Positions 40,119-63,796 of a stretch of DNA of 64,000 nucleotides are shown piece by piece (within the stretch, counting starts at the first letter, position 1; each line of letters opens with the position of its first letter). A model generated the notes under the pieces. It was given only the letters and a program-made list of their open reading frames with translations, did not search any database and was not told the DNA's origin. The position numbers were made by a program, and so were the translations under genes. The stretch covers positions 2,526-66,525 of the forward strand of contig JAATET010000071.1 of assembly GCA_015655545.1 (NCBI GenBank). The letters are read 5' to 3'. The stretch comes from Chthoniobacterales bacterium. GTDB taxonomy: Bacteria > Verrucomicrobiota > Verrucomicrobiia > Chthoniobacterales > JAATET01.

Positions 40119-40448
40119 TCAGGGCGTCTTGTGTTCCAGCGCCTGCAATCGTTCGTCAATTTGAATGCTTGCCGCGGTCAGCCCTTTGGCAATTTCAAGC
40201 AGGTTATTCTCGGCCCGTCGCCCGGCTTCGGCATCCTTCCTCGCTAGCACCGCCTGGTGTTTCACTTGCGCCTCGAGTTGACGCAACTCCTCCCGCAGCC
40301 GGGCGTCGGCACCCCGCAGCCGCTGGAGGGATCTCTCCTCGAACTCGCGGAGAGCTTTTAAAACCAACCCGCGCCCGAGAGCCGCGGCGACGATCAGCGT
40401 GAGGACATTTATCGAGACGGCGATGAGAATCGTCACCAATGGACTCAC
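40119..40448 (-). CDS. Small N-terminal TM + coiled-coil protein (module copy A)
   Basis: The GTG at 40448 (GTGA overlap) gives 'VSPLVTILIAVSINVLTLIVAAAL' (TM). A heptad-like Arg/Glu/Leu-rich region follows, ending 'IDERLQALEHK'. The architecture and tail resemble 45006..45308. Confidence 0.55.
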   Translation of the reverse strand: MSPLVTILIAVSINVLTLIVAAALGRGLVLKALREFEERSLQRLRGADARLREELRQLEAQVKHQAVLARKDAEAGRRAENNLLEIAKGLTAASIQIDERLQALEHKTP

Positions 40449-41293
40449 GAGTTCGCCTCCGTTTCCGAATAAAAATGGCGGGCGACTTTGGATCGCGCGG
40501 AACGGGCGGCCGCATCCGCGCGGACGGCGATTTTTTCGAGAAACATCCGATAAAGCGCCGCGTAGGCTTTCACCCCGCCATCGTTTGCACGCCCGTCTTC
40601 GAGCATGAGCGGCGGACCGACTTCCGTTTCCAGACCGGAGCCCGAGAGCCAGGCCTGCGTCGCCGGCACGAATACGCGAGACACATCCTCCAGCCGCATC
40701 AGGAGCACTTTCGCGGCGCCCCGCTCGTGGATTTCATACGCGCGCGCGCGGGGAAATGGCTGCGCGAAAACGTCGACCCCAAACACTCCGCTCATCTCGC
40801 GATCAAACCATTCGTCGAACAGATCCCTGGGATATTCGCGGATAAAAACATTCACCAGATCATCGGCCAGCGCCCCCAACTCCTCGCCCCCGACCGCATC
40901 GCGAGACTTTTTCCGAGTCAGCACTCGACGACAAATCGCGCGCGTCTTCTCGGGAATCCGGTGAATCCAGTAAACGTGCAGATTTTGAAAAAATGCGGAG
41001 AGATCGCGCTGGAGAGGATCGCGCACGAGGCAAAGCACAAACCAACGCGCCGCGGAAAAATCCCCACCAAACCGTCGGCGCAGTTCGATGCTGCCGGACA
41101 AATGATCGGGAAATTTGCAGCGGGGCGCCTCGGGGCGATCGAGCCACCAAGCCATCCCATTCAACACGCCGCCTTCGCTGAGAGCGTGGGTCTGGTAGAT
41201 TTTTCGCGTCGGAAATCGCCGTTGCAGCGCACTGGCCACGCTGGTCGAACCGACCTTGCCGATTTGATGAACGCAAATAACCGCCGGCTTCAT
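40445..41293 (-). CDS. Sulfotransferase-fold protein, family-2-like (module copy A)
   Basis: The ATG at 41293 (ATGA overlap) gives 'MKPAVICVHQIGKVGSTSV' (PKxGGTS-like 5'-PSB loop). Also 'LCLVRDPLQRDLSAFF' (RDPxxRxxS 3'-PB-like). It is a clear paralog of 48435..49337. Confidence 0.6.
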   Translation of the reverse strand: MKPAVICVHQIGKVGSTSVASALQRRFPTRKIYQTHALSEGGVLNGMAWWLDRPEAPRCKFPDHLSGSIELRRRFGGDFSAARWFVLCLVRDPLQRDLSAFFQNLHVYWIHRIPEKTRAICRRVLTRKKSRDAVGGEELGALADDLVNVFIREYPRDLFDEWFDREMSGVFGVDVFAQPFPRARAYEIHERGAAKVLLMRLEDVSRVFVPATQAWLSGSGLETEVGPPLMLEDGRANDGGVKAYAALYRMFLEKIAVRADAAARSARSKVARHFYSETEANS

Positions 41294-41787
41294 TCGTGGG
41301 CCGGCGCGCCCACGTCGCGGAGCACCGGAAGGGGGCGCAGATTCGGGATGTGATCGTGGCGCGGAACGAACGAACGCGACTTCATGCTGAGGTTGCTGAA
41401 ATGCACGGCACCGGCCGTTTCCCATCCGGGACGCCCAAACTCCGCGCAGCCTTCGGCCTGCTCGAACATCCAGGTGTTTTTCGTCACGATCATCATGTCG
41501 GAGACATGCTGCTTTCCTTGCAAACGGTCGTCGGACATCACTTCGTAAGCTGCAAACAGCCGCGCGACGCGGTCGTATTCCGCCGCGGTGCCACTCACGA
41601 GACAAGGGACGCTCCGCTCGTAAAGCGCAAGATTGCCGACCGGACGCGGACGGAAGCTATAGTTGATCACATCGTAGTCGCACATGAACCCGCCGCCCGC
41701 CTGCGCGACGGCCAGCCAGCGGACGTAGCAATAGTAATCGAGCTTCTTGCGATTGATGCTGGGCAGCGCGCGGTAAGCGAGGAGCAT
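41290..41787 (-). CDS. Fragment 3/3 of the split Maf-like transferase: C-terminal half of a GT32-like domain
   Basis: 'KKLDYYCYVRWLAVAQAGGGFMCDYDVINYSF' matches the GT32/Caps_synth 'D..R..L...GG.Y.D.D' pattern. It is in the same frame as 41797..42621, separated only by TAA + 9 nt. Confidence 0.5.
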   Translation of the reverse strand: MLLAYRALPSINRKKLDYYCYVRWLAVAQAGGGFMCDYDVINYSFRPRPVGNLALYERSVPCLVSGTAAEYDRVARLFAAYEVMSDDRLQGKQHVSDMMIVTKNTWMFEQAEGCAEFGRPGWETAGAVHFSNLSMKSRSFVPRHDHIPNLRPLPVLRDVGAPAHE

Positions 41788-41796
41788 TTTGGTGAC

Positions 41797-42621
41797 TTAC
41801 TCATCAATCTGCACGGAGGATTCGTCGAGCACGATGGCCTCCCAGCCGTTTGCGGTCCAGCTGGCCTTCCAGAGATCGACCAGCGCCGCCTCGTGCTCGG
41901 GGATCTTGCCGTGGATCGGTGCGCAGAAGGTATAAACGACCGGGCGCGGCGGAAGCGCCGGCGGCAGATCGTTCGTCGAATCGCGCCGCGAAAGCGCGGG
42001 CACGTGCGAGGTGGTGATGTTGCGAAAAATGCGTCCGTCCTGCTCCCCCTGGCGCATGAGCAGCTCGAGAGTCGCGCAATGCTGATCGTAATAATCGGTG
42101 TAGCTGATTTTGAAAAATCCGGGATGCGCTTCCTTCGCGTCGTCCATTTTATCGGCGATCTGCGATGGGCCGTGATGGCTCCAAAAATATGTCTGCGCCT
42201 TGTCCGAACGGCCATCGCAGCCGCCCACGCAAATTTCACGGGCCAGCGTGGAGGCGACCGGGAGCATGAGCATGGTGAGAATGTTTCCCGTCTGGTTGGC
42301 GCTGAAATTCGACATCAGATCGAAGTTGAAACGTCCCAGTTTATGAATCGGAATGCCAATGATCCGCTTCAGGAGCTCCGCGGGAAAATGCGCGGCATAG
42401 TAGGGATAATGCGTGATGGGCACGATCGCGTAGAGCGGGTAGCGCATCATCGCATCGACGAGATTGCGCCGGAACTCGGCGGCATAGCGCGAGCAGCCGG
42501 CGTGGAAAACCGGATCCCCGCAGCAGACGATGGACGGCTGGATTTTATCCATGAGCCGCGTGTTGCGCACGAGGCTGTTGGAGACCACGCGCACACCGTC
42601 GAGCAGATGCGCGTCGGCCAC
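41797..42621 (-). CDS. Fragment 2/3 of the split Maf-like transferase: rest of the DUF115 domain + N-terminal half of a GT32-like domain
   Basis: Starts at a GTG 3 nt after an in-frame TAG. 'DPVFHAGCSRYAAEFRRNL', 'NILTMLMLPVASTLAREICVGGCDGR' and 'HPGFFKISYTDYYDQHC' align with 45313..48438. The C-terminal 'VVYTFCAPIHGKIPEHEAALVDLWKASWTANGWEAIVLDE' is GT32-N-like. Confidence 0.5.
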   Translation of the reverse strand: MADAHLLDGVRVVSNSLVRNTRLMDKIQPSIVCCGDPVFHAGCSRYAAEFRRNLVDAMMRYPLYAIVPITHYPYYAAHFPAELLKRIIGIPIHKLGRFNFDLMSNFSANQTGNILTMLMLPVASTLAREICVGGCDGRSDKAQTYFWSHHGPSQIADKMDDAKEAHPGFFKISYTDYYDQHCATLELLMRQGEQDGRIFRNITTSHVPALSRRDSTNDLPPALPPRPVVYTFCAPIHGKIPEHEAALVDLWKASWTANGWEAIVLDESSVQIDE

Positions 42622-42624
42622 CTG

Positions 42625-43341
42625 CTAGAGCGAGGGACCGGTGCCGAAAACGTAGGCGCGCGGCGAGTTTCCCAGCGTTTTTGCCATCGCGATGAATTTT
42701 TCCCGGCATTGCGCGACAACGGCCGAGCGGCAGGCGCCCAACAATCGCGGGACGTCGAGCCAGGTCGAAGCTTCTCTCGCATAGGTTTGGCGGTCGACAT
42801 TGAAGAAGGTCCGTCCACCGCGCCGAAACACTCCGTAGTTCGAAAGCTGAGCGGGCGGATCCCATAAACGGGAGTCCCAGACGAGCACGATGTCGGCATC
42901 GGCGATCACTCCGCGTTCGTCATCGAGACTTCCGATTTCGCGAAATTCGAAGAGCGGGAGAAGTTGCCGCCGGCACTGCGCGGTTTCCTCGTCGAGATAA
43001 GGCGGGAGATCGCGCTCTCCCGGCCCGATGCCGACCGCCACGGGAAAGATAATGCCGCGGATTTTTTCGACGACCGGGCTGAGATACCAGCTCGATCGAT
43101 AAACCAGATCCGCCAAGACCGCGGCATCGGAAATCGCCGGCAGGAACGTAACCGTGACCGCCCGCTTCCCGCCCAAGGCCGCAATCGCCGGAGCCATGAC
43201 GCCATTCCGCGGCGCAAATGTAAACACCCTCTCCGCGAGGGAAATAAGCCTGGCGTGTTTCGGGAGATAGTCTCGGGTTCGAGTCATAGAATGGTGGCGA
43301 TCTGAATCGGGCATGGTGTCCCACGCGAGCTGGAAATCCAA
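42625..43341 (-). CDS. Fragment 1/3 of the split Maf-like transferase: N-terminal region ending in the 'GTGPSL' glycine-rich motif
   Basis: Ends 'RAYVFGTGPSL*', exactly where the paralog continues 'AYCLATGPSLAAFKETNFDG'. The start is uncertain (TTG 43341, ATG 43314 or ATG 43287). Confidence 0.5.
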   Translation of the reverse strand: MDFQLAWDTMPDSDRHHSMTRTRDYLPKHARLISLAERVFTFAPRNGVMAPAIAALGGKRAVTVTFLPAISDAAVLADLVYRSSWYLSPVVEKIRGIIFPVAVGIGPGERDLPPYLDEETAQCRRQLLPLFEFREIGSLDDERGVIADADIVLVWDSRLWDPPAQLSNYGVFRRGGRTFFNVDRQTYAREASTWLDVPRLLGACRSAVVAQCREKFIAMAKTLGNSPRAYVFGTGPSL

Positions 43342-44198: not shown

Positions 44199-44984
44199 TC
44201 AGGCCGCGGGAGAGGCGCCGCGTTTTTGATAGATTTGCGTTTCCCATTCGGCGGCGAGGAGGCCGAAGCCGTCGAAGGCCGCGGCTGGAGGATTTGCGGC
44301 GCCGTGGGTCACGAGCAACCCGCCCTCTTTTATGGAACCGAGCAACGAAACCGGCGCGCGCGCGAAAGCATCCGCCGAGGTAATGATCAAAACATCCAAC
44401 GGCCCCATGCCGGTCGATTCGCCCGACACTTCCGAAATCGTGATCTCGCGGGGCGATCCGGAAAAAACGCGGCGCAGCATCGCCGCGCGCGACTCGGCCG
44501 CCGCTCCCGTCACGCCGACGGAAAGACGACGATCCAGCCGCCAGGACAGGGCGATGGCTTCGGCCACCAGATCGGGCATCGCCGCATCGATGTAGTTTCC
44601 TTCGAGAATTTCAGCGCGCTCGATCGCCCGGGCCCACTTCTCGATTTGTCCGCTTTCGAGCTTCCCTCCGAACATGGCGGCCCAATCCCCCAGCGCGGAC
44701 AGATCCAGTTCGCTCAGCCGACTCCGCGGCCCGGGGGACAAAAGCTCGCCGTAACGTCGGGCGGCATTTTCCTGCAGACGCACGAATCCGAGATGCAGCC
44801 GCCGCAACTGCGCATCCGTCGTGCTGCGCTCGATGCCGAGCTTGATCACGGCGACAGCACGTTCGATTTCGATTTGCCGGCGTTCGATATTGTCGAACTG
44901 CCGCCCCAGCCGTCGGCGGGTAATGACCAGCATTACGCCGGTAAAAAGCGCACTGACAAAAATGGAGGAAATAAAGACGAGCAT
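44199..44984 (-). CDS. TM + coiled-coil protein with a possible degenerate Rossmann/methyltransferase-like C-terminal region
   Basis: 'MLVFISSIFVSALFTGVMLVI' (TM), then 'IERRQIEIERAVAVIKLGIERS'. The C-terminal 'LDVLIITSADAF....LGSIKEGGLLVTHG' is only loosely MTase-like. Confidence 0.5.
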   Translation of the reverse strand: MLVFISSIFVSALFTGVMLVITRRRLGRQFDNIERRQIEIERAVAVIKLGIERSTTDAQLRRLHLGFVRLQENAARRYGELLSPGPRSRLSELDLSALGDWAAMFGGKLESGQIEKWARAIERAEILEGNYIDAAMPDLVAEAIALSWRLDRRLSVGVTGAAAESRAAMLRRVFSGSPREITISEVSGESTGMGPLDVLIITSADAFARAPVSLLGSIKEGGLLVTHGAANPPAAAFDGFGLLAAEWETQIYQKRGASPAA

Positions 44985-45312: not shown

Positions 45313-48300
45313 CTATTTCCAAATGGTAAGTCGCCCGCGATGCGCGCCGGGAAAAACTTCGCGCAATTCCTCCATGCGATGGCGGAAAAATTGCCCGACT
45401 TGATAGCGCACGTTTAACCGCCGGAGCGCCGCGAGCCAAGCTTTCAGCCAATTCCCGATGCGGGCGGAAATGCTCGCCGGATCGGCTCCCGATGCGCGCG
45501 CGGCGGAATGCGCGTCAATCGCCGCGGAATAGGCCTTGCGCAGGCGAATCACCGCCGCCGGAGCGCCGCGTCGCACTCGGATCAATGCCGGATCGAGCAA
45601 AATAAGCACCCCCGGCTGGGCGGGCGGAATGTCCTCTCCGGCCGACACCTCACAAAGCACGCGATATTCTCCGGGGCCGTTTTTCCCGAGTGGAAAATAG
45701 CGTCCGCTCCACACCGCCCGCAGGCCATCGAGGTGGCGAAGCCGATCCAGAATCATCGTCCGCTCCGCATCCGTGCCGTCACAGAAAACCAGTGTCGCCG
45801 CCGTCCGCAGGGGCAGCACTTCCACGCCCCGGATATCGCGGGCGCGGCAAAGCACGACGGCCACCGCATCCTTTCCGAAAGTCGGCATCAACGTCGAAAA
45901 ATGACGACTCGCCCCGGCGAGCGCCGGGCACGCCACGGCCTTCCATTCGCGATTCATGAATTTTTCGAGCCAATCCGACGGAATATCGCCGAAAGCCACG
46001 GCGACTCGAGCCGCCGCTTCCTCGCGGAAGAACCGCGCGGCGACTTCGCAATCATCGACCTCACGACGATCCAGCCGCGTGTAGGGACCGAGCAAAGTCG
46101 GCCGGGAAGACAAAGGCCGCCGCGCCCCATCGAGCCGCGAAACGAGCTGTTGAAATAATTGCCGCGAGGCGTCCGCGCCGAGCTCGCCGAGAGCGCGTTC
46201 GCGCGCGGCCAGCGCCTTTTCTCGAAACACCTCCGGCGACGCAGCCAGCCGGCGCAGTTCGCTTTTCAGCAAGTCCGCCTCCGGCCGATCCACGACGATC
46301 GCCGCGCCCAGTTCCCGCGCCCGCCTTACGGTGGCGATGGTTTCCGGACCGAACACCAGCAGAGGCACGCCCGACGCAAGGCATTCAGGCAATTTGTTGG
46401 CCATCGAGAATTGCGTGTAAACGCGCGTGCGCTCATCGAAATTGTAGGCAATCAGCAGCGCGCCGGCCGTCGAAAGCAGCTTCGGATATTCCGACCACTC
46501 CACGGACGGAAGGACTTCGACCCCGCGAAGCCCGTTGAATTTTTCCCGCGCGACTTTGAACGCGGCCGGCAGCGCGCAGACCTCGAATCGGATCGGCAAC
46601 TCATCGCCAAGCTCGGCCACCGCGCGCGCGACCATCTCGACGCTCGCCAGCGTCATGTCCTCGGTGAGCCCGCCGCAATACCGGATGACCAGCGGCTCGC
46701 CCGGCTGTCGGCCGGAAGGCAGGCCGGTCCATTCCGACGGATCGATCCCATTGGCGACGGCCACGAAATCCTGCCCATAGCGTTCGCGATACGCATCACT
46801 CATCGCATCGGAAATGCTCAGCCGCACCGCGGATTGTCGCAGCAGGGCACACAGCGTCGGCTCGATGCGCGCGAAGCTTTCGGGATTTTCCATCCGCAGT
46901 CGCTCCGGCCAGTCGTCCATGATGTGCGTCACCACCGGCACGCCCGATCGCCGCACGATCTCCCAGCCCAGCTCCAAAAACTCGGGCGGGCTATCCGTCG
47001 GACGAAAATAAATCAGCTGCGGAGCGAAATCCGCACATTCCCGGAGCACGTCGTCGCGCGTAAGTTTCGCGCCCGGGAAATCCGGATGCGCTTCCTGGCT
47101 GTGCAGGCGAAAATACGATCCGTCCCTCGTGCTGAGCGGGCGGATTTGCAGGACTTTTTTCGCGGGCCATTTCTGGAAAAGCGTCGCCTTCAGCTGGCCC
47201 GTGGCATTGCGCGCGCCGATCTCGGTGAAGTCGATCACCAGCATGCGCGGCAAGTTCGCGGGGCGGCTCGACAGCGCCGGAATGAACGAGGGCGTGACGG
47301 TGCCGTATTCGCGCCCCATTTTCTCGCCGTCGTGAATCAGCTCCTCGAGCTGGCGGCAGTGGTCGAGATAGTAATCGTTGTAATCGATCGCGAAGAATCC
47401 GGGATGCACGAGCCGGATGGTTTCCATCTGGTCGTTGATCTGCGTCGTTTTGTTGTGCTGCCAGAAGTAGCCGCTCTCGTCGAGCGGACGCCCGTCGCAG
47501 CCGAGCAGATAAATTTTCCGCGCCAGCGTCGAAGCCACCGGGAGCATGAGATAGGTGAGGATGTTCGCCGTGGTGTAGACGCGAAATTCCGCCGCGAGAT
47601 CGAGATTGAAGCCGTTCGGCTTGTCGGACGGAATGCCGATCGTCCGCGCTTGCAGCTCCGGCATCGCGTCGGTCAGCAGGCCGTGATAACGCATCGGCAC
47701 AATGATCGTGTAGTCGTGCCGCACGCAGGATTCCCGCAGCTTTCGGCGGAATTCCGCCGCGTAGTTCGACGGTCCGTAATGGAATATCGGATCGGCAAAA
47801 ACCAGAAAGCGCGGGCGCACCCAATCCATCAATTCCTCGTCCAAAATCGCGCTGTTGCAGACGATGGAAAGCGCGCCGTCGAAATTGGTCTCCTTGAACG
47901 CGGCCAATGACGGGCCGGTCGCCAGGCAATAGGCCGTTTCGAATTGCCCGTATTCTTCCAGCAGCCGCCCGAAGCGAATGCGCGATTGTTCGATTTCGGC
48001 CTCGCGATCGGCCCGAAGTTGAAAATTCAATTCGACCCAGTTGCCGAATTCCTGCCTCGTGCGCACAGGATCGCCGCGGAGGATTTTTTTCCGGCTCAAC
48101 GCCTCCGTCCATTCTTCCTCCGTGAGAATGTCCCATTGCGGCGGATCCTCGACGAAGACCACGAAGTCGGTGATTACCAGGCGCTCGACAATTTCTTCCT
48201 TCGTCGGGACGGGAACAAATCGGACGCGGGGGCGCAGAGCTGGGAAATTGGCCGCGATGGCGGGATCCATGAGCACGGGCACCTTCCACTCGACATCCGC

Positions 48301-48438
48301 AAGCGTCGGACTCTCGAGATAAATCGTGCAATCGTGGAACGACGCCAGGCCGATGCCCCAGGCCATGCGGGCGATCAGATCGTGCAACTCCTCCTCGCTG
48401 CGGATCAGCGGCAGGATCGTGATGCGGCTTTCCTTCAC
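45313..48438 (-). CDS. 1041-aa multidomain transferase: unknown N-domain + DUF115/MptE-like (Maf-like) domain + GT-B (GT4-like) domain + unknown C-domain
   Basis: The GTG at 48438 forms GTGA with the upstream stop (the ATG at 48483 would overlap by 49 nt). DUF115-like 'CLATGPSLAAF...IVCNSAIL...PRFLVFADP...LLGCDG'. GT-B 'LLIAYNFDERTRVYTQFSMANKLPECLASGVPLLVFG'. I did not recognise the last ~265 aa. Confidence 0.7.
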   Translation of the reverse strand: MKESRITILPLIRSEEELHDLIARMAWGIGLASFHDCTIYLESPTLADVEWKVPVLMDPAIAANFPALRPRVRFVPVPTKEEIVERLVITDFVVFVEDPPQWDILTEEEWTEALSRKKILRGDPVRTRQEFGNWVELNFQLRADREAEIEQSRIRFGRLLEEYGQFETAYCLATGPSLAAFKETNFDGALSIVCNSAILDEELMDWVRPRFLVFADPIFHYGPSNYAAEFRRKLRESCVRHDYTIIVPMRYHGLLTDAMPELQARTIGIPSDKPNGFNLDLAAEFRVYTTANILTYLMLPVASTLARKIYLLGCDGRPLDESGYFWQHNKTTQINDQMETIRLVHPGFFAIDYNDYYLDHCRQLEELIHDGEKMGREYGTVTPSFIPALSSRPANLPRMLVIDFTEIGARNATGQLKATLFQKWPAKKVLQIRPLSTRDGSYFRLHSQEAHPDFPGAKLTRDDVLRECADFAPQLIYFRPTDSPPEFLELGWEIVRRSGVPVVTHIMDDWPERLRMENPESFARIEPTLCALLRQSAVRLSISDAMSDAYRERYGQDFVAVANGIDPSEWTGLPSGRQPGEPLVIRYCGGLTEDMTLASVEMVARAVAELGDELPIRFEVCALPAAFKVAREKFNGLRGVEVLPSVEWSEYPKLLSTAGALLIAYNFDERTRVYTQFSMANKLPECLASGVPLLVFGPETIATVRRARELGAAIVVDRPEADLLKSELRRLAASPEVFREKALAARERALGELGADASRQLFQQLVSRLDGARRPLSSRPTLLGPYTRLDRREVDDCEVAARFFREEAAARVAVAFGDIPSDWLEKFMNREWKAVACPALAGASRHFSTLMPTFGKDAVAVVLCRARDIRGVEVLPLRTAATLVFCDGTDAERTMILDRLRHLDGLRAVWSGRYFPLGKNGPGEYRVLCEVSAGEDIPPAQPGVLILLDPALIRVRRGAPAAVIRLRKAYSAAIDAHSAARASGADPASISARIGNWLKAWLAALRRLNVRYQVGQFFRHRMEELREVFPGAHRGRLTIWK

Positions 48439-49337
48439 GTCGGGGAGTGTGTCATCGGCGACGCCGTTTCGGTTTTGGTCCACTTGGCCGCGAAGCGCGC
48501 GCGCTCGAGGCCGGAATAGAAATGGCGCGCGGTCCGGGAAGCGTATTCCTGCTCCACCACGGCCGGATCAAACGTCAGCTGATCCATGAATTTTCGATAA
48601 AGCAGGGCGTAGCGTTTATTGCCGGCCTCGTTCGCCCGCGGCAACTCGAGGCCGCCTCCCGCCATGAGCGCATTTTGCCATGGGGAGCCGTCGAGCCAGG
48701 CGCGGAGGCCGGGCTCGAACCCTGCGGCGAGATCCTCGATCCGGAGCAGAAGCAGGCGCACGCGTTTGTTTTGATAAAGTTGATAGCCGCGATCCGGTGC
48801 GAAGGGTTCGGCAAACACATCGATGCCGAAAACTCCACACATCTCGTCGTCGAACCAGCGATCGAGGAATTGCCGGGAGTAACGCTCGTGGAAAAGGGCG
48901 ACCAATGCCCGCGCGACCTCGTGAATTTCGTCCTCTCCCGGCACTGGCCCGGATTTTTTCCGCAGCAGGCGGCTGCAAATTTCGCGCGCTGCAGCGGGCA
49001 GACGATGCACCCAGACCAGATGGAGATTCTGGAAAAACGCGGAGACGTTGCGCCCGATCGGATCCCGAACGAGCGACAGCAAATACCAGTCGCGCTGCTC
49101 CAGGCCGCCGTGAAGATAGCCGCTCACTTCGATGCTCGAGAGCAGATTCGGCGACGGCTTGAAGCCGGGCGAACGCCGCGAGCGGTCCAGCCACCGAATG
49201 ATGGAATCGAGCATCCTGCGTTCGCTGAGTCCGTGGGTCTGATGGATTTTTTCGCCCGGCAAAAAGTGATTCAACGTCTGGAGAACGCTGGTCGAACCGA
49301 CCTTGCCGATCTGATGAATACAAATGACTGGTTTCAT
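48435..49337 (-). CDS. Sulfotransferase-fold protein, family-2-like (module copy B)
   Basis: The ATG at 49337 gives 'MKPVICIHQIGKVGSTSV'. Also 'LLSLVRDPIGRNVSAFF'. It is a paralog of 40445..41293, and a 33-nt stretch is shared with one mismatch (41239-41271 vs 49286-49318). Confidence 0.6.
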   Translation of the reverse strand: MKPVICIHQIGKVGSTSVLQTLNHFLPGEKIHQTHGLSERRMLDSIIRWLDRSRRSPGFKPSPNLLSSIEVSGYLHGGLEQRDWYLLSLVRDPIGRNVSAFFQNLHLVWVHRLPAAAREICSRLLRKKSGPVPGEDEIHEVARALVALFHERYSRQFLDRWFDDEMCGVFGIDVFAEPFAPDRGYQLYQNKRVRLLLLRIEDLAAGFEPGLRAWLDGSPWQNALMAGGGLELPRANEAGNKRYALLYRKFMDQLTFDPAVVEQEYASRTARHFYSGLERARFAAKWTKTETASPMTHSPT

Positions 49338-49389
49338 GCGCTGAGAAGAGTCCGCGCGCCGGGGACGGAAAAGCAGGCGAATCGGGATT

Positions 49390-50265
49390 TCAATTTTCCG
49401 CGAGCAGCCGGCGGAGGTAAGCGCCGTAGGTGGATTTCCCGAGCCGCTCGATCTGGCGTTCCAGTCCTGCGCGGTCGATCCATTTTTGCCGGAAAGCGAT
49501 TTCTTCGAGGCAGGCAATTTTGAGGCCTTGCCGATTCTCGATGATGTGGACGAACTCCGCGGCTTCGAGCAGTGATTCATGCGTGCCGGTGTCGAGCCAG
49601 GCGATGCCGCGACCGAGCAACTCCACGCGCAAGGTGCCGCGCTCGAGATAGCGGCGGTTCAGGTCGGTGATTTCGAGCTCGCCGCGGGCCGAGGGCTGGA
49701 GCGTGCGCGCCAGGGCGGAGGCGTCGCCGTCGTAATAATAGATGCCCGGAACGGCGTAGTTCGACTTCGGCCTGGCGGGTTTTTCCTCGATGGAAAGCAC
49801 CTCGCCCGTCGGGCTGAATTCGACGACGCCGTAGGCCGCGGGATCGGAAACGAGACAGCCGAAGATCGTGGCGCCGGATTCCTGCGCGCTGGCGGCGAGC
49901 AGCGCCTTCACGAAATCGTGTCCGTAAAAAAGGTTGTCCCCGAGCACGAGAGCCGAGGGTTTTCCGGCGAGAAATTCCTCTCCGATGAGGAACGCCTGGG
50001 CGAGTCCGTCGGGCTTTTCCTGGGTCGCGTAGGAAAGGCTCAGTCCGAACTGCGACCCGTCGCCGAGCAGCTGCTGGAAGAGCGGCATGTCGTGCGGCGT
50101 CGAGATGACGAGGATCTCGCGGATGCCCGAAAGCATGAGCGCCGACAGGGGATAATAAATCATCGGCTTGTCGTAGATCGGCATGAGCTGCTTGCTCACC
50201 GCGATGGTGAGCGGATAGAGCCGCGTGCCGGTGCCGCCGGCGAGAATGATGCCTTTGCGTTCCAT
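49390..50265 (-). CDS. rfbA: Glucose-1-phosphate thymidylyltransferase
   Basis: '[38 protein letters not shown]' and 'LGDNLFYG'. The 291-aa length fits RmlA. Confidence 0.9.
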
Positions 50266-52012: not shown

Positions 52013-53650
52013 TCATCGATCGGGTTGGTTGCGCTGAAAAAGGTAGGCGAATTTGCCGGCGCCGTCCGGATACGTGCCGGCCAAATGCCAGGCGGGATCC
52101 GCACGAAAGAGCGCCAGCAATTCCGGCTGTAATTTCTCGGCGGGGATATCGTTTCCTTCCGGCCGGCCACTCAATCCGGGATCCTGCAACAAGACGTAGC
52201 TGGCGTCGCGGGTGAATCGCAGGACTTCCTCACGACGATGCGCGAGAGCGGCACTGATCATGGTGAGTTTACGATTTCGAGCCCGGAACTCGATTTCGAA
52301 ATATTGAGGCACGATCGGATTGGCCTGCGTGACCACCAGCGTCGGATCGTCGTTGGCACCCGAGGCCGCAAGCAGATCGCGGAGGACGCCGTTGTTTACC
52401 GACGTCTGAACTTTTCGTATTTTTTTCGAAACGACGCAGACCGGCGGAAACGAAAAGGCGGTCGCACAAAACGCCAGCACTACACCGGCGAAGACTGCTT
52501 GTCGCCAAAGCGGACGCAGCCATTCACGAGCCCGGGTGCATCGAAGCAGCCGCACGGCATACCACGCGGCGCCGAAGATGAGAAATCCGTAGAACGATCC
52601 TCCCAAATAGGGACTCTTCATCGAAAAAGCCGCGTTCACCACGCAAGTGCCGGCCAGCATCCATAAGAAAGCAGCCGCGCGCAGTCGGACGGCAAGCGTC
52701 TCTCCGCGGGCCAGGTCGACAAGCGATCCCGTCAAAAATATCGCCAGGAGCGGATAGAAGAAATTTCCCAGATTGGAGGCCAGTGCCTTGCCGGGAGCCA
52801 CGTAGTAGGTGAGTTGGTCCCAAAGCGAGCCGTGGAATTCCCAGACTTCGCGGTTGTCTCCGAAGCTGTTGACGAAAAAGTAATCGAAAATTTCGCGACC
52901 GTGCTGCACCCAATACCAGCCCGCCACGGCCATGGCACTCGCGATCGCAAGGGCGAGTCGAATCCCCAAGTCACGAAAGGAAACACCGCCGGTCAAGAGC
53001 GCGATCGCCGCGGAGAGAAACCACGTGCCCCCCATGACCAGCAGCGTCATGGCGAAGGTCGAAGGCTTGATGAGCAGCACCAGGCCGACTGCCACTCCAA
53101 AGGCGACCGCGAAAAGTTTCCGCTCGAAGGGCCGTTCGCTCGCGAGCAGCAGCGTGCAGCTTCCACCGAGCACCACGGCCCACATCATATCGGGCCGGAA
53201 CTGCTGCGCGCACATCGTCGCGAAAGGAAACGCCAGCGTGCCGATGACAAGAGCGGCTTTGATCAACGGCGGCAGCGACCGGGTGATAGCCGCGACGAAA
53301 GCGAGCAGGGCGAACACAACCAACGCGAGTACATAATAGGCGCGCTCGACACTGGGGCCGAAAAGCAGGAAGCCGAAGACCCCCGCGAAGACGGGAAACG
53401 GCGCGTGAAGATTCTGGGTCAGCAGCGCGCCTGCGGCCGCGACGGCGCCTTGATTCGCGCCGAGGAAATAGATTTCCGACGCCTTGTTGAAATAAACGAC
53501 ATCGTCGTAGTTCGTAATCGTCGAGAGACGGCCAATTTCTTTCGACGTCTTAAGACTCGCCGCGGTGAAAAGTGCGGCGCAGCAAAGCAAAATCAACCCT
53601 CCGGTCAACGCCGGCCCGAGATGCCAAAGACTATTTCGACAGCTGCCCAT
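52013..53650 (-). CDS. Polytopic membrane protein, GT-C-like (ArnT/PMT-family-like) putative glycosyltransferase
   Basis: About 12 hydrophobic segments. The first loop carries 'NYDDVVYFNKASE' (a DxxxY-type acidic motif as in GT-C enzymes). A ~140-aa soluble C-terminal domain follows. I prefer the ATG at 53650 over the TTG at 53668. Confidence 0.55.
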   Translation of the reverse strand: MGSCRNSLWHLGPALTGGLILLCCAALFTAASLKTSKEIGRLSTITNYDDVVYFNKASEIYFLGANQGAVAAAGALLTQNLHAPFPVFAGVFGFLLFGPSVERAYYVLALVVFALLAFVAAITRSLPPLIKAALVIGTLAFPFATMCAQQFRPDMMWAVVLGGSCTLLLASERPFERKLFAVAFGVAVGLVLLIKPSTFAMTLLVMGGTWFLSAAIALLTGGVSFRDLGIRLALAIASAMAVAGWYWVQHGREIFDYFFVNSFGDNREVWEFHGSLWDQLTYYVAPGKALASNLGNFFYPLLAIFLTGSLVDLARGETLAVRLRAAAFLWMLAGTCVVNAAFSMKSPYLGGSFYGFLIFGAAWYAVRLLRCTRAREWLRPLWRQAVFAGVVLAFCATAFSFPPVCVVSKKIRKVQTSVNNGVLRDLLAASGANDDPTLVVTQANPIVPQYFEIEFRARNRKLTMISAALAHRREEVLRFTRDASYVLLQDPGLSGRPEGNDIPAEKLQPELLALFRADPAWHLAGTYPDGAGKFAYLFQRNQPDR

Positions 53651-53684
53651 GAGGAGGTTCCGCGACAATCGACACCGCAGGCCT

Positions 53685-58125: not shown

Positions 58126-58845
58126 CTAATAAAGAACTTCATCGAGAATGAGATAAATCCCCTCTTCCGCCTCGACTTGATCGATCCTCGCCGCCTGCTC
58201 CGCGCTGAGATGACGCTGCCAGTCGCCCATGATGCCTTTGCGGAAAAAGCGTTTTTCTTCCGGCACGGTCGCGCCGCTGAGCTTGGAAAACTGGGTGTTC
58301 TGCCGCGCTTCGCGGATTTGCAGCTTCGTCAGCGTTCGCCCCAAAAAACGTCCAAGCCGGAAAAGCTCGTCATCGAAGACGGTGTGCAGCTTTTGATAAG
58401 TCGTGAAGAATATCCGATCCTCGACGCCGCGGTTGTCCCAATACAAATGATAGCGCGTCAGCGCGCGGACCAGATTCTCGCCGCGCTTGGCGAAGAACTC
58501 ATCCATCGTGCCCACAAAATGTCCGAGCCGCTTGAAATGATAGTAGGCGGACACCACCACGTCCTTCGGGTCGCGATAGATATTGAGGATCTTTACCCCC
58601 GGCTCCGCGAGAAGCAGCGGGCGCATTTCATCCTCGGGCTTGAAGTGCGCCTTGATGAGGTAGTCGTTCGTCTCGATATCCGCGACGCGTAGAAACTCAG
58701 GCATCCGCCGCGGCTCGATCGTGTTGTTTTTCCACGACTCGTTTTTAAATTCCGCCGGCACTTCCAACACGGCACCGAGCTGCCGGACGATCAACGTCAG
58801 CCAGGTCGAGCCGCTTTTGAACGCGCCGTTGCTTACGATCAACAT
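58126..58845 (-). CDS. Sulfotransferase (Sulfotransfer_1, cytosolic-type)
   Basis: 5'-PSB 'GAFKSGSTWL', 3'-PB 'IYRDPKDVVVSAYYH' and the C-terminal 'FFRKGIMGDWQRHL'. Confidence 0.85.
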   Translation of the reverse strand: MLIVSNGAFKSGSTWLTLIVRQLGAVLEVPAEFKNESWKNNTIEPRRMPEFLRVADIETNDYLIKAHFKPEDEMRPLLLAEPGVKILNIYRDPKDVVVSAYYHFKRLGHFVGTMDEFFAKRGENLVRALTRYHLYWDNRGVEDRIFFTTYQKLHTVFDDELFRLGRFLGRTLTKLQIREARQNTQFSKLSGATVPEEKRFFRKGIMGDWQRHLSAEQAARIDQVEAEEGIYLILDEVLY

Positions 58846-61173: not shown

Positions 61174-61193
61174 AAGTTCTCTCCAGACAAGAT

Positions 61194-62510: not shown

Positions 62511-62557
62511 TTGGCATTCCCCACCGGTCTTTCCCGGAGCGGACTCGACATGCTTTC

Positions 62558-63796
62558 TCAACTCCCGCCCGGAATAAAAAAATCCAGACCTCGATCCCTC
62601 AGAATTTGCTCGGCAAATTCCCTCACCGCCCCGTTTCCGCCACCTTTGCTGCAAATATAATGGGCACGTGCCGCCACATCCGCAACCGCGTCGCTCGGGC
62701 AGCACGCCAGTCCAACCGCCTCGAGCACAGGGATATCCGCCAAGTCGTCACCGATGTAGGCCACCTCATCCAGGGTGACATTTGCTTCCGCGGAAATTCT
62801 GCCCAACTCCAGCATCTTGTCCACCGCACCCTGTGCGAGATAATTTACCTTCAACTTCGCCGCGCGGCGCTCCACGATCTTCGTGTCTTCCACGGTAATA
62901 ATGCCCGTAAGAATGCCTGCCAGTCGCAGCAATTCGATGCCCTTCCCGTCGCGGGTGTTGAATTTTTTGATCTCGTCCCCGCATTCCGAATAATACATTC
63001 CCGCGTCCGTCAGCACCCCGTCCACATCGGTCAGAAAGAGTTTAATTTTCCCCACACGGGCGCGGAAATCGTCCGCGGAAATTCTCAGTTTCCCAAGGAG
63101 GGCGGAGCCTCCCAGCAAAGAACCGGCCTTGCTCTTTGCGAGGATCGCCTCCACCACATCCCAGTCCGACGGCTCGTCGAGCTCAAAATATGACTCTTCT
63201 CGCATTTCATAGAGGGACACCTTGCCTGGGAGCCTGCTCCCCGTGCGAAGAAGCGCCTCCCTTTCGCAAATATAAAAGGCTCCATTCTCCACATAATAGG
63301 GCTTCATCTCCTGGCGTCGCGGCCTGGAGCGCGGGTCGTAATTCCCAGATGATGCAACGCCGTCTGAATCGCGGCTCCAAATAAACCGCTTCTGCGGCAC
63401 GACGGAAAGGAGGCTATCCGCGCCGGCACGATTGAGCTCCGCCAACCCCGACGCGAGGTCCTGCGAGGTAAGCAGGGGCGAAGTGGCCTGAATGAGAACC
63501 ATTTTCCCGAATTCATGTTTGCCGGCGAATTCGAGCATCACAAACTCCGTACTGGCCGTGTCGCTGGCGGACTCGACGCTTCGCCCGGAGACAAACACCT
63601 TGGGATTGGCAAGTGCAGTGACGACTTGCGCAATCCTGTCGTCGTCCGTGCAAACATGGACTTCCTCAATTTCATCGCAGCCTGCGGCGGCCTCTATGAC
63701 CCATTGGCAAAGCGGCTTTCCGGCAAGCAGCTTAATGTTCTTGAGCGGGATGTTCTTGCTGCCGCCTCGCAGCGGAATAAAGGCAATCGTCTTCAC
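62558..63796 (-). CDS. Fusion: acylneuraminate-type cytidylyltransferase (CMP-nonulosonate synthetase) + KdsC-like HAD phosphatase
   Basis: N-terminal 'IAFIPLRGGSKNIPLKNIKLLAGKPL' (CTP_transf_3). C-terminal 'LFLTDVDGVLTD' (HAD motif I), 'KVNYLAQGAVDK' and 'YIGDDLADIPVLEAVG' (motif IV). GTG start at 63796. Confidence 0.8.
   Translation of the reverse strand: MKTIAFIPLRGGSKNIPLKNIKLLAGKPLCQWVIEAAAGCDEIEEVHVCTDDDRIAQVVTALANPKVFVSGRSVESASDTASTEFVMLEFAGKHEFGKMVLIQATSPLLTSQDLASGLAELNRAGADSLLSVVPQKRFIWSRDSDGVASSGNYDPRSRPRRQEMKPYYVENGAFYICEREALLRTGSRLPGKVSLYEMREESYFELDEPSDWDVVEAILAKSKAGSLLGGSALLGKLRISADDFRARVGKIKLFLTDVDGVLTDAGMYYSECGDEIKKFNTRDGKGIELLRLAGILTGIITVEDTKIVERRAAKLKVNYLAQGAVDKMLELGRISAEANVTLDEVAYIGDDLADIPVLEAVGLACCPSDAVADVAARAHYICSKGGGNGAVREFAEQILRDRGLDFFIPGGS

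What the first reader, a model, noticed from the sequence alone, without database searches (positions are those of the whole stretch)
45313..48438. 1041-aa four-region protein: two regions look like DUF115 and GT-B domains, and two (~165 aa N-terminal, ~265 aa C-terminal) match nothing I recognise
**Seen in the sequence**
- A single uninterrupted frame.
- Approximate layout from the GTG at 48438:
  - aa 1-165: unknown, but shared with the split paralog (for example 'TDFVVFVEDPPQWD' vs 'ADIVLVWDSRLWDPP').
  - aa 165-395: DUF115-like, coordinates ~47254-47946.
  - aa 398-770: GT4-like GT-B, coordinates ~46129-47247.
  - aa 775-1041: unknown, coordinates ~45316-46116. It contains 'AVAFGDIPSDWLEKF...VVLCRARDIRGVEVL...LVFCDGTD'.

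**Inference:** two catalytic modules in one polypeptide suggest a bifunctional polymerase or terminator. The unknown C-domain could be a substrate-binding or regulatory module.

The likely real start is a GTG hidden inside a GTGA overlap. An automatic caller would probably pick the ATG at 48483 instead.
Basis: partly seen in the sequence, partly recalled or inferred. Interest (0 to 1): 0.55.

Follow-up and report, generated by a model that had tools for sequence, protein, structure and literature searches.

The report
Three-module polysaccharide glycosyltransferase with dead methyltransferase
This is a real 1041-residue enzyme of a bacterial surface-polysaccharide gene cluster, built from a sialyltransferase-like module of an unannotated but widespread family, an ordinary GT4-type glycosyltransferase, and a C-terminal domain that is a decayed methyltransferase, so it is a new variant of a known kind and not a new kind of system.

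Summary
The ORF is real: 45313-48438 on the minus strand, 1041 aa from GTG 48438, with 12 full-length orthologs in Chthoniobacterales/Terrimicrobiaceae.

- **Module A (aa 1-392).** The "unknown" N-terminus and the "DUF115-like" part form one conserved unit, found in more than 100 multidomain proteins and as stand-alone proteins of about 430 aa. Neither Pfam nor NCBIfam matches the target. It is remotely homologous to PF01973-type domains (hhalign E 1e-5). Its model best matches the Cst-II/Cst-I sialyltransferases.
- **Module B (aa 397-772).** A GT4-like GT-B fold.
- **Module C (aa 780-1041).** It is confined to the orthologs. Its first ~80 residues are homologous to the FkbM methyltransferase that relatives carry at the same position (95%, E 2e-8), but the SAM-binding motifs are lost. 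I read it as a pseudo-methyltransferase followed by a basic helical tail.

**Context.** The cluster encodes NeuB, a CMP-nonulosonate synthase and a Wzt-like ABC ATPase. A cytidylyltransferase lies within 10 kb of module A in 28 of 68 loci.

**Best reading.** A cytoplasmic dual glycosyltransferase in an ABC-transporter-type pathway, with module A adding a CMP-activated ulosonic acid.

**Corrections.** 48483 is GTG, not ATG. The paralog's two stops are absent from a near-identical public contig.

The parts
45313..48438 (-). Complete CDS, 1041 aa from GTG 48438 (stop codon at 45313-45315). The longest ORF would start at GTG 48483.
   Evidence: orthologs; N-termini
48435..48438 (-). GTGA overlap: the start GTG of the target overlaps the TGA stop of the upstream NKWYS sulfotransferase-like gene (48435-49580).
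   Evidence: the same 4-nt overlap with the upstream gene is seen in ortholog locus L001
47989..48438 (-). Module A, N-terminal alpha/beta subdomain (aa 1-~150). It has five beta-strands alternating with helices. It is the more variable half of the module and is a candidate acceptor-binding lobe (inference).
   Evidence: DSSP and pLDDT; several relatives align only from aa ~110-165 onward although they have N-terminal residues of similar length
47263..47988 (-). Module A, sialyltransferase-fold / DUF115-superfamily catalytic subdomain (aa ~151-392). Invariant motifs are ATGPS (174-177), CNS (194-196), ADPIFH (215-220), LGCDGR (312-317), VHPGFF (344-349) and YNDYYxxHC (353-361).
   Evidence: invariant columns; Foldseek: Cst-II/Cst-I top hits, prob 1.0; hhalign against PF01973-type domains, E 1.2e-5
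46123..47250 (-). Module B, GT-B fold GT4-like glycosyltransferase (aa 397-772). Conserved motifs are HxMDDWPxR (505-513), RYG (553-555), YNFD (665-668) and NKxPExLASG (681-690).
   Evidence: Foldseek: GlgM, MshA, BshA, WaaG, PimA, E 1e-13 to 1e-9; weak Glyco_trans_1_2 / WcaI hits; relatives pass the Pfam GT1/GT4 models; conservation across 42 sequences
45589..46101 (-). Module C, degenerate FkbM-type methyltransferase-derived domain (aa ~780-950). Its element order matches a class I methyltransferase. Motif I reads AFGDIPSD in place of DVGAHxGS, and the end of beta2 reads ACP in place of FEPD.
   Evidence: hhalign 95.3%, E 2.1e-8 over the first ~80 columns; DSSP, pLDDT ~90; no homologs outside the orthologs among 1.84 billion representatives
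45316..45588 (-). C-terminal basic helical tail (aa ~951-1041). It has three helices, 17 K/R against 5 D/E, and an amphipathic helix at 990-1006. Candidate membrane- or partner-docking element (inference).
   Evidence: DSSP; lower pLDDT of 55-70; charge, hydrophobic moment, no TM segment
41290..43287 (-). Paralog: module A plus a ~220-aa C-terminal domain. In the window it is interrupted by TAG (42625-42627) and TAA (41797-41799). It is intact in contig L006 (635 aa) and in L001 (657 aa).
62558..63796 (-). CMP-nonulosonate synthase fused to a Kdn-9-P/KdsC-type phosphatase. It is the likely supplier of the CMP-sugar donor in this cluster. NeuB, a PseG-like protein and a Wzt-like ATPase lie just beyond the window end (locus L005).

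Best explanation
The ORF encodes a soluble or peripheral cytoplasmic glycan-assembly enzyme made of three modules. It works in an ABC-transporter-type surface-polysaccharide pathway that also makes a nonulosonic acid.

- **Module A (aa 1-392)** is a two-lobed unit. Its C-terminal lobe has the sialyltransferase (GT42/GT29, DUF115-superfamily) fold and keeps every family-invariant residue. I infer that it transfers a CMP-activated ulosonic acid to the growing glycan. Here the donor would be the NeuB/CMP-synthase product of the same cluster. One of the invariant histidines (H345 or H360) would act as general base, as His188 does in Cst-II (own knowledge). The variable N-terminal lobe would hold the acceptor.
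- **Module B (aa 397-772)** is a GT4-like GT-B enzyme that adds a second sugar, probably from an NDP-hexose. Together A and B would add two consecutive residues of the repeat unit, acting as a co-polymerase component.
- **Module C (aa 780-1041)** descends from the FkbM methyltransferase that follows the GT-B module in relatives. It has lost its SAM-binding motifs and part of its core. It most likely survives as a structural or docking domain, with a basic amphipathic tail for membrane or partner association.

Shown: the module boundaries, folds, homologies, motif loss and gene context. Inferred: donor identity, catalytic residues, the polymerase role and the role of module C.
For: **The gene is real and conserved.**

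**Models are confident.**
- Whole protein: pLDDT 89.7.
- Module A alone: pLDDT 91.4, pTM 0.90.

**Module A.**
- Of 350,542 PDB chains, the three best Foldseek hits are Cst-II and Cst-I (E 6e-4 to 9e-4, prob 1.0). ST6GALNAC2 and a Pasteurella sialyltransferase follow.
- hhalign against PF01973-type domains found in the same proteins and loci gives 81%, E 1.2e-5 over 213 collinear columns. The GPS, N, D, GxD and H motifs are matched.
- PF01973 is the only Pfam family hit by more than one module A segment: 5 of 20, best E 2e-4.
- 34 invariant columns in the 20-sequence module A alignment (25 in the earlier 60-protein alignment), all of them present in the target.
- Stand-alone ~430-aa versions exist.

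**Context.**
- The same cluster encodes NeuB, a CMP-nonulosonate synthase fused to a phosphatase, a PseG-like protein and a Wzt/TagH-like ABC ATPase.
- Across 68 independent module A loci, a CTP_transf_3-type cytidylyltransferase lies within 10 kb in 28. Among the 38 loci with at least 8 kb on both sides, it does so in 21. It is usually within 5.5 kb.
- The cytidylyltransferase often comes with a 2-hydroxyacid dehydrogenase, an SDR and an HpaI-type aldolase.
- A distant stand-alone homolog sits next to neuB on an Azospirillum plasmid.
- Relatives lie next to Wzm/Wzt genes.

**Module B.** The top Foldseek hits are GT4 enzymes. About 60 positions are at least 90% conserved across 42 sequences.

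**Module C.** In relatives, FkbM (PF05050) follows the GT-B module directly. hhalign of the C-terminal alignment against those FkbM domains gives 95.3%, E 2.1e-8, and shows DVGAHxGS replaced by AFGDIPSD and FEPD replaced by ACP.

**Localisation.** There is no TM segment and the tail is basic and amphipathic.
Against: - No biochemical data exist for any member of the module A family.
- The target itself hits no Pfam or NCBIfam model for module A. A profile search of PDB sequences found nothing.
- The direct profile alignment to the Cst-II sequence is collinear but not significant (P 0.044). TM-scores are modest (0.45-0.49 on the target length).
- PF01973 also contains a pyrophosphokinase (MptE), so the fold does not prove glycosyl transfer.
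- About half of the module A loci show no cytidylyltransferase within 10 kb. One example is Mesorhizobium, where only GDP-6-deoxyhexose genes are nearby. Some members are in Actinomycetota, which I would not expect to make Kdo (own knowledge). The donor may therefore not be a CMP-ulosonic acid in all members, or in any.
- This cluster contains two other candidate nonulosonate transferases: the paralog and a PF07388-like protein.
- The fold of module C was not searched on its own. Only its first ~80 residues are demonstrably FkbM-like.
- No control set of unrelated glycosyltransferase loci was scanned for the co-occurrence figure.
Confidence: 0.55

Rival explanations
1. Chain terminator or adaptor instead of polymerase. 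Module A would add a single non-reducing-end ulosonic acid cap, which the C-terminal extension of the Wzt ATPase recognises for export. This is what the Kdo-adding terminators WbbB (GT99) and K. pneumoniae O4 ORF7 (GT137) do. Module B would add the last or the linking hexose.
For: - A Wzt-like ATPase of 464 aa, with ~190 residues beyond the nucleotide-binding domain, lies in the same cluster.
- A relative sits directly upstream of Wzm and of a Wzt with a weak Wzt_C hit.
- Relatives carry methyltransferase domains, another typical capping activity.
- Known terminators are multimodule proteins that use CMP-Kdo (PMC11231755).
Against: - Characterised terminators carry a long coiled-coil molecular ruler (PMC11231755). 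The target has only three short helices (17-21 aa) after module C.
- The methyltransferase remnant is degenerate.
- The C-terminal extension of the Wzt ATPase was not shown to be a carbohydrate-binding module.
- Two module A proteins occur in one cluster, which argues against a single cap.
Confidence: 0.2
2. Module A is not a glycosyltransferase. It is an MptE-like nucleotide-dependent phospho-, pyrophospho- or other group transferase that decorates the glycan. Only module B would then be a glycosyltransferase.
For: - The only Pfam family weakly hit by module A members is PF01973, which is named after a pyrophosphokinase.
- Roughly half of the loci have no cytidylyltransferase nearby.
- Kinase-methyltransferase pairs are known glycan terminators (PMC11231755), and relatives pair module A with methyltransferases.
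Against: - The best structural matches are sialyltransferases of two CAZy families, not kinases.
- Cytidylyltransferase genes are strongly enriched next to module A. NeuB linkage is seen in the window's cluster and in Azospirillum.
- The characterised bacterial PF01973 proteins described in the literature retrieved here are Maf glycosyltransferases that use CMP-nonulosonic acids or CMP-Kdo (abstracts listed: bioRxiv 10.1101/2020.06.03.131540 and PMC11339370).
Confidence: 0.12
3. Module C is still an active but highly divergent SAM-dependent methyltransferase that methylates the product of modules A and B.
For: - It is positionally and sequentially derived from FkbM.
- Its core is modelled with pLDDT ~90 and a methyltransferase-like element order.
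- It keeps 32 invariant positions among the orthologs.
Against: - The glycine-rich motif I and the acidic residue at the end of beta2 are replaced in all orthologs.
- The FLKIDTEG region of FkbM aligns to a gap.
- Pfam gives no methyltransferase hit at E<=1 for the target.
- Separate intact methyltransferase genes are present in the cluster.
Confidence: 0.08

Closest known systems
Campylobacter jejuni Cst-II / Cst-I sialyltransferases (CAZy GT42; PDB 1RO7, 2P2V)
   Same: - They are the best fold matches for module A.
- The motif order is collinear: GNGPSL/ATGPSL, CNQ/CNS, YNP/ADP, IYLSGID/IYLLGCD, and a histidine near the C-terminal end.
- The donor is presumed to be CMP-activated in both.
   Different: - There is no significant sequence or profile match.
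- Module A has an extra ~150-aa N-terminal alpha/beta lobe and its own invariant motifs (VHPGFF, YNDYYxxHC).
- Module A is fused to other catalytic modules and occurs in polysaccharide clusters, not lipooligosaccharide clusters.
DUF115 / PF01973 (MptE-like; Maf flagellin nonulosonic-acid glycosyltransferases)
   Same: - Remote profile-profile homology over ~213 columns.
- Weak PF01973 hits in 5 of 20 family members.
- Maf enzymes use CMP-Pse, CMP-Leg, CMP-Neu5Ac and CMP-Kdo (abstracts listed: bioRxiv 10.1101/2020.06.03.131540, PMC11339370).
- PF01973-type domains co-occur with module A in the same proteins and loci.
   Different: - The target does not reach the Pfam model at all.
- The acceptor is presumably a glycan, not flagellin.
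- Accessory domains and fusion partners differ.
Neisseria meningitidis serogroup W/Y capsule polymerases (GT4 hexosyltransferase + GT97 sialyltransferase in one ~1037-aa chain)
   Same: - A single polypeptide of about the same size combines a GT4-type hexosyltransferase with a sialic-acid transferase (own knowledge of the family; papers listed, e.g. PMC6048754).
- It works in an ABC-transporter-dependent pathway and builds an alternating hexose-sialic acid polymer.
- It is the best functional analogy for a co-polymerase reading.
   Different: - The domain order is reversed.
- The sialyltransferase module belongs to a different family.
- There is no third methyltransferase-derived domain.
- Homology to the target was not detected or tested here.
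Multimodule O-antigen polymerase-terminator proteins of ABC-transporter pathways (WbbB GT99/102/103; K. pneumoniae O4 ORF7 GT137; WbdA/WbdD)
   Same: - The logic is the same: modular, cytoplasmic and multi-activity, with ulosonic-acid (Kdo) transfer from a CMP donor and methyltransferase modules.
- They show Wzm/Wzt linkage (PMC11231755, PMC9587256).
   Different: - There is no coiled-coil ruler.
- GT99 structures did not appear among the fold matches of module A.
FkbM-family methyltransferases (PF05050)
   Same: Module C aligns with the start of the FkbM domain that occupies the same position in relatives. Its secondary-structure order is compatible.
   Different: The SAM-binding motif I, the beta2 acidic residue and the KIDTEG region are lost. 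Pfam gives no hit.

Membership tests
DUF115 / PF01973 (MptE-like) | Match to the Pfam PF01973 model at or above its curated cut-off | tested here: not met
   The target has no hit at E<=1. Five of 20 module A segments hit weakly (best E 2.2e-4). The one PF01973 score shown (30.7 bits, for a separate C-terminal domain of P0033) is below the 34.6-bit cut-off; bit scores for the module A segments were not printed.
DUF115 / PF01973 (MptE-like) | Profile-profile homology to PF01973-type domains, with the GxGPSL, N, D, GxD and H motifs collinear | tested here: met
   hhalign of alignment A2 against 11 PF01973-type domains gave Prob 81%, E 1.2e-5 over 213 columns with the motifs aligned. This supports superfamily-level relatedness only.
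GT42 sialyltransferases (Cst-I/II) | Sialyltransferase-type fold | tested here: met
   Foldseek against the PDB: ranks 1-3 are Cst-II and Cst-I (E 6e-4 to 9e-4, prob 1.0, TM 0.47-0.49 on the target length). GT29 ST6GALNAC2 is also listed.
GT42 sialyltransferases (Cst-I/II) | Sequence-level family membership | tested here: not met
   The profile search of all PDB sequences found no sialyltransferase at E<=10. hhalign against the Cst-II sequence gave P 0.044, Prob 1.2%.
GT42 sialyltransferases (Cst-I/II) | Catalytic histidine (His188 in Cst-II) and use of a CMP-nonulosonate donor | tested here: inconclusive
   Invariant H345 and H360 are candidates. The weak alignment pairs H360 with His188, while the DUF115 alignment pairs H345 with a conserved His. 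The donor is inferred only from gene context. Activity is not testable here.
GT4 / GT-B glycosyltransferases | Two-Rossmann GT-B fold closest to GT4 enzymes | tested here: met
   Foldseek on the whole model: GlgM, MshA, BshA, WaaG, PimA and others, E 7e-13 to 1e-8, TM on target length mostly 0.5-0.74.
GT4 / GT-B glycosyltransferases | Pfam Glycos_transf_1 / Glyco_trans_1_4 / Glyco_transf_4 above the curated cut-off | tested here: not met
   The target hits only Glyco_trans_1_2 at 16.9 bits against a 25-bit cut-off. Homologous B modules of relatives do pass, e.g. P0014 with PF13692 at 50.8 bits and P0016 at 31 bits.
GT4 / GT-B glycosyltransferases | EX7E-type C-terminal motif | tested here: inconclusive
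   The conserved sequence is S678..N681-K682-x-P684-E685-x-LASG. The second Glu is present, but the first position is not Glu.
FkbM methyltransferases (PF05050) | Homology to the FkbM domain | tested here: met
   hhalign of alignment A3 against 52 FkbM domains of relatives gave 95.3%, E 2.1e-8. Only the first ~80 columns are confidently aligned. Pfam itself gives no hit.
FkbM methyltransferases (PF05050) | SAM-binding motif I (DVGAxxG), an acidic residue at the end of beta2, and the KIDxEG motif | tested here: not met
   These read AFGDIPSD, VACP and an alignment gap respectively, in all orthologs.
Polymerase-terminator proteins with a coiled-coil ruler (WbdD, WbbB, Kp O4 ORF7, Kp O7 ORF6) | Long C-terminal or central coiled coil | tested here: not met
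   DSSP of the model shows no helix longer than 21 residues after aa 772. No dedicated coiled-coil predictor was run.
GT137 (K. pneumoniae O4 ORF7, CMP-Kdo-dependent terminator) | Sequence or fold similarity to the founding member | not testable with these tools

The most novel reading that the evidence does not exclude
Module A (about 390 aa: a variable alpha/beta lobe plus a sialyltransferase-fold lobe carrying the VHPGFF and YNDYYxxHC motifs) would define a new, uncatalogued glycosyltransferase family.

- The family is spread over at least ten bacterial phyla.
- It would install CMP-activated ulosonic acids into ABC-transporter-dependent polysaccharides.
- Its donors would include a so far undescribed 3-deoxy-2-ulosonic acid, made by the linked cassette of HpaI-type aldolase, 2-hydroxyacid dehydrogenase, SDR and cytidylyltransferase.
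- The Verrucomicrobia lineage would have turned the adjoining FkbM methyltransferase into a pseudo-enzyme scaffold.
Probability: 0.35. Interest if true: 0.6.

Novelty: new variant of a known kind. Interest (0 to 1): 0.42.

Why it matters
- If module A is an ulosonic-acid transferase, it gives glycobiologists a new sequence family for finding sialic-acid-like and Kdo-like sugars in environmental bacteria. The phyla covered include Verrucomicrobiota, Planctomycetota, Cyanobacteria, Actinomycetota and many Proteobacteria. At present these genes are annotated as 'hypothetical' or mislabelled 'FkbM family methyltransferase'.
- The linked cassette (cytidylyltransferase, dehydrogenases, aldolase) points to a CMP-sugar pathway that does not use a NeuB-type synthase.
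- The target also offers a clear case of a methyltransferase module decaying into a non-catalytic domain inside a multimodule glycan-assembly enzyme.
- None of this changes the general picture of how such pathways work.

Tried and rejected
- **Wrong paralog candidates.** I first tested the 551-aa and 626-aa neighbours (52013-53668, 53685-55565) as the 'split paralog'. They show no similarity and look like membrane proteins. The true paralog was found by tblastn.
- **Whole-model fold search.** Only GT-B hits filled the 50 rows shown, so it gave no information on modules A or C. I therefore spent the second structure job on module A alone. Module C could not be searched separately.
- **PDB sequence and profile searches for modules A and C.** These gave only chance-level hits (IspH E 0.09, NNF1 E 0.6, PLZ2.3 E 0.09), which I disregarded.
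- **Weak Pfam and NCBIfam hits.** I disregarded VpsR (E 0.23) and protochlorophyllide reductase (E 0.011).
- **P0124.** This hit from the exhaustive search is a low-complexity tandem-repeat protein, not a homolog.
- **Profile search of the 5.8-billion-protein set with module A.** It returned only close relatives and no named or distant families.
- **Plasmid collection.** Two 'hypothetical protein' hits only.
- **GT137.** It was considered but could not be compared.
- **Literature.** A search for FkbM-type O-antigen terminators found nothing relevant.

Full report
**1. The observation**

The minus-strand frame 45313..48483 is open for 1056 codons. It has a coding-type composition, with GC3 0.75 against GC2 0.45.

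A second GTG at 48438 overlaps the TGA of the upstream NKWYS-type gene (48435-49580) as GTGA.

A search of 5.8 billion proteins found an identical protein and eleven further full-length or near-full-length orthologs. They are 59-81% identical, and the named ones come from Chthoniobacterales and Terrimicrobiaceae MAGs. The gene is therefore real.

Several observations favour the 48438 start:
- Six orthologs are called from the position equivalent to 48438.
- The 12-16 extra residues in the longer calls are not conserved.
- The wider family also begins 2-4 residues before the conserved 'RITxLPLI' strand.
- In ortholog locus L001 the gene again overlaps its upstream neighbour by 4 nt.

**2. Anatomy: three modules, not four regions**

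BLAST of the target against 120 relatives shows two recurring alignment blocks, aa ~4-392 and aa ~397-836. aa ~837-1041 aligns only in the orthologs. The AlphaFold2 model built on a 60-sequence alignment is confident (mean pLDDT 89.7). Its only segments of pLDDT below 50 are 774-778 and 1030-1033.

- They are found at the N-terminus or inside more than 100 large multidomain proteins. Partners include GT1/GT4, GT2, FkbM, Methyltransf_24/CmcI and NKWYS domains. Stand-alone proteins of 412-440 aa also exist.
- A 20-sequence alignment has 34 invariant columns. They include G175-P176 of the ATGPS motif, N195, D216-P217-x-x-H220, G313-x-D315-G316, H345, F348-F349, Y353, Y356-Y357 and H360. P346 is nearly invariant.
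- Neither Pfam (2025) nor NCBIfam (2026) recognises the target here. PF01973 is the only family hit by more than one module A segment: 5 of 20, best E 2e-4.
- Against an alignment of PF01973-type domains taken from the same proteins and loci, hhalign gives 81% probability and E 1.2e-5 over 213 collinear columns, with the motifs matched.
- A separate model of module A (pLDDT 91.4, pTM 0.90) was searched against 350,542 PDB chains. The three best hits are the GT42 sialyltransferases Cst-II and Cst-I (E 6e-4 to 9e-4, probability 1.0). Human ST6GALNAC2 (GT29) and a Pasteurella sialyltransferase follow.
- A profile search of PDB sequences found nothing. The direct profile alignment to the Cst-II sequence is collinear (GPS, CNS/CNQ, ADP/YNP, IYLLGCD/IYLSGID, H360/His188) but not significant (P 0.044).
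- The N-terminal ~150 residues form a five-stranded alpha/beta lobe and are the more variable half. Several relatives align only from aa ~110-165 onward although they have residues there. I take this lobe to be the acceptor side, by inference.

*Module B (aa 397-772).*
- The whole-model Foldseek search returned only GT-B enzymes. GT4 members lead the list (GlgM, MshA, BshA, WaaG, PimA; E 7e-13 to 1e-8).
- The target reaches only sub-threshold Pfam and NCBIfam hits (Glyco_trans_1_2 at 16.9 bits, WcaI). Homologous B modules of relatives pass PF13692, PF00534 and PF13439.
- About 60 positions are at least 90% conserved across 42 sequences, including HxMDDWPxR, RYG, YNFD and NKxPExLASG. The module is therefore under purifying selection.

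*Module C (aa 780-1041).*
- An exhaustive HMMER scan of 1.84 billion representative proteins found only fragments of orthologs and one ortholog.
- In relatives that share A and B collinearly, an FkbM methyltransferase domain (PF05050, E 1e-18 to 1e-24) starts directly after the GT-B module.
- hhalign of the eleven-sequence module C alignment against 52 such FkbM domains gives 95.3% and E 2.1e-8 over the first ~80 columns. This stretch covers the LLGPYTRL linker motif, helix Z, beta1, helix A and beta2.
- In that stretch the SAM-binding motif DVGAHxGS has become AFGDIPSD, and the FEPD at the end of beta2 has become ACP. In a relaxed alignment the FLKIDTEG region falls in a gap.
- The modelled core (pLDDT ~90) has the element order of a class I methyltransferase.
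- It is followed by three short helices of lower confidence. These are basic (17 K/R against 5 D/E) and partly amphipathic. The protein has no transmembrane segment.
- I conclude that module C is a decayed FkbM domain kept for a non-catalytic role.

**3. Surroundings**

A minus-strand cluster runs from ~27.6 kb to the window end. It contains:
- about a dozen GT2 and GT4 genes;
- two NKWYS and two Sulfotransfer_1 genes;
- several methyltransferases;
- an RmlA-type nucleotidyltransferase;
- a hexapeptide acyltransferase;
- a PF07388 (polysialyltransferase-like) gene;
- a cytidylyltransferase fused to a Kdn-9-P/KdsC-type phosphatase.

A public contig that differs from the window at 5 positions over their ~11.4-kb overlap (L005) extends past the window end. 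It adds a NeuB-type synthase, a PseG-like protein and a Wzt/TagH-like ABC ATPase of 464 aa. The cluster therefore makes a nonulosonic acid and probably exports its product through an ABC transporter.

**4. Context of the family**

A scan of one genome per species returned 65 loci from Verrucomicrobiota, Alpha-, Beta- and Gammaproteobacteria, Desulfobacterota, Actinomycetota, Cyanobacteria, Planctomycetota, Nitrospirota, Spirochaetota, Acidobacteriota, Bdellovibrionota and Campylobacterota.
- In 28 of 68 independent loci a CTP_transf_3-type cytidylyltransferase lies within 10 kb. Among the 38 loci with at least 8 kb on both sides, this holds for 21. In 26 of the 28 it lies within 5.5 kb of module A.
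- The three cytidylyltransferases I tested are distantly PseF/KdsB-like and fall below every equivalog cut-off.
- The cytidylyltransferase usually sits in a cassette with a PGDH-like 2-hydroxyacid dehydrogenase (26 loci) and an SDR (22 loci), and sometimes with an HpaI/GarL-type pyruvate aldolase (10 loci).
- A NeuB-type synthase accompanies it in only two of these loci.
- A distant stand-alone homolog on an Azospirillum lipoferum plasmid lies one gene away from neuB.
- Wzt-like and Wzm-like genes occur in 21 and about 19 loci. In Mesorhizobium the relative is the gene immediately upstream of wzm and wzt.
- No control family was scanned. By my own estimate, a genome with one to three such cytidylyltransferase genes would place one in a random 20-kb stretch about 1% of the time.

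**5. Mechanism**

The best-supported reading is a cytoplasmic dual glycosyltransferase. Module A would add a CMP-activated ulosonic acid, here the cluster's nonulosonate. Module B would add a hexose from an NDP-sugar. Module C would serve as scaffold or docking domain.

The folds, homologies, motif loss and gene linkage are shown. The donor, the catalytic histidine (H345 or H360) and the polymerase role are inferred.

The protein lacks the long coiled coil that marks the known terminators (PMC11231755). I therefore favour a polymerase-component role (0.55) over a terminator role (0.2).

The main weaknesses are:
- There are no biochemical data for any family member.
- TM-scores are modest.
- About half of the loci have no nearby cytidylyltransferase.
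- PF01973 also includes a pyrophosphokinase.

**6. Comparison with known systems**
- By fold, the closest are GT42 Cst-I/II.
- By remote homology, the closest are the DUF115/Maf transferases, which use CMP-nonulosonic acids and CMP-Kdo (abstracts listed: bioRxiv 10.1101/2020.06.03.131540, PMC11339370).
- By architecture and logic, the closest are the meningococcal W/Y capsule polymerases (GT4 plus a sialyltransferase module in one chain; papers listed) and the multimodule O-antigen enzymes WbbB and K. pneumoniae O4 ORF7/GT137 (PMC9587256, PMC11231755).
- The target fails the sequence-membership tests for PF01973, GT42 and PF05050. It passes only the fold or profile-profile tests. GT137 could not be compared.

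**7. Verdict**

This is a real and well-conserved gene. The protein is a new variant of a known kind: a modular polysaccharide glycosyltransferase. Its first module belongs to an unannotated, phylogenetically broad, sialyltransferase-fold family. Its last module is a pseudo-methyltransferase. The finding is of moderate interest to specialists and is not categorically new.

Noticed in passing
window 41290-43341 (-); stops at 42625-42627 and 41797-41799: The module A paralog carries two in-frame stops, GAG->TAG and GAA->TAA. It is otherwise 77% identical, without frameshifts, to the intact 657-aa gene of L001. In the near-identical contig L006 the gene is intact (635 aa). All 5 differences between the window and L006 over 10.2 kb are G:C->T:A transversions (window 45471, 44594, 44191, 42627, 41799). 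That pattern fits DNA damage or assembly error as well as a strain variant.
   Followed up: partly
loci L004, L017, L021, L023, L026, L027, L057-L059 and others (e.g. L017:7535-9910): A conserved cassette lies next to module A genes in 22-28 of 68 loci. It comprises a PseF/KdsB-like cytidylyltransferase, a PGDH-like 2-hydroxyacid dehydrogenase and a glucose-dehydrogenase-like SDR. In 10 loci each there is also an HpaI/GarL-type aldolase or a protein that looks to me like an SMP-30/gluconolactonase family member but had no NCBIfam hit. A NeuB-type synthase accompanies the cytidylyltransferase in only 2 loci. This may be a pathway to an undescribed CMP-activated 3-deoxy-2-ulosonic acid.
   Followed up: partly
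window 60499-63796 (-) and L005:4640-9126: Nonulosonic-acid genes sit at and beyond the window end. They are a hexapeptide acyltransferase, a PF07388 polysialyltransferase-like protein, a CMP-synthase fused to a Kdn-9-P/KdsC-type phosphatase, a short (288-aa) NeuB-like synthase, a PseG-like protein, a Wzt/TagH-like ABC ATPase with a ~190-aa C-terminal extension, and an epimerase.
   Followed up: partly
window 52013-53668 (-) and 53685-55565 (-): Two large proteins (551 and 626 aa) whose hydrophobic sequence suggests membrane proteins lie in the middle of the cluster. Neither has a Pfam or NCBIfam match, apart from a chance-level Wzz hit (E 0.066). They are candidates for the missing permease, polymerase or ligase-type component.
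   Followed up: partly
window 31703-32569, 40445-41605, 48435-49580, 58126-58845 (all -): Four sulfotransferase-like genes (two Sulfotransfer_1, two NKWYS) occur in one cluster with at least three methyltransferases. This suggests a heavily sulfated and methylated polysaccharide in a verrucomicrobial soil or freshwater lineage.
   Followed up: no
window 44199-44984 (-) and 40119-40448 (-): A 261-aa gene directly downstream of the target, and a 109-aa Glu/Ala-rich gene after the second NKWYS gene, keep the same relative positions in ortholog locus L001. Neither has a family match. They are possible partners of the target.
   Followed up: no
window 46159-47910 (+): A 583-aa ORF lies antisense to the target (GC1 0.79, GC3 0.64). 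Similar long antisense ORFs recur in the high-GC relatives: an antisense ORF cluster is present in 49 loci. This is a composition artefact, not a gene.
   Followed up: yes
proteins P0026, P0033, P0058, P0064; loci L002, L003, L004: Some relatives carry two copies of module A (P0026). Others carry module A plus a separate PF01973-type domain, either in the same chain or in an adjacent gene. One small neighbour in L002 has faint hits to both MptE-like and WaaZ_KDO_III (a Kdo transferase family).
   Followed up: partly
window 62037-62061: Four clustered substitutions relative to contig L005 fall within 25 nt inside the polysialyltransferase-like gene. The rest of the ~11.4-kb overlap differs at only one other position (53245, C->A).
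   Followed up: no
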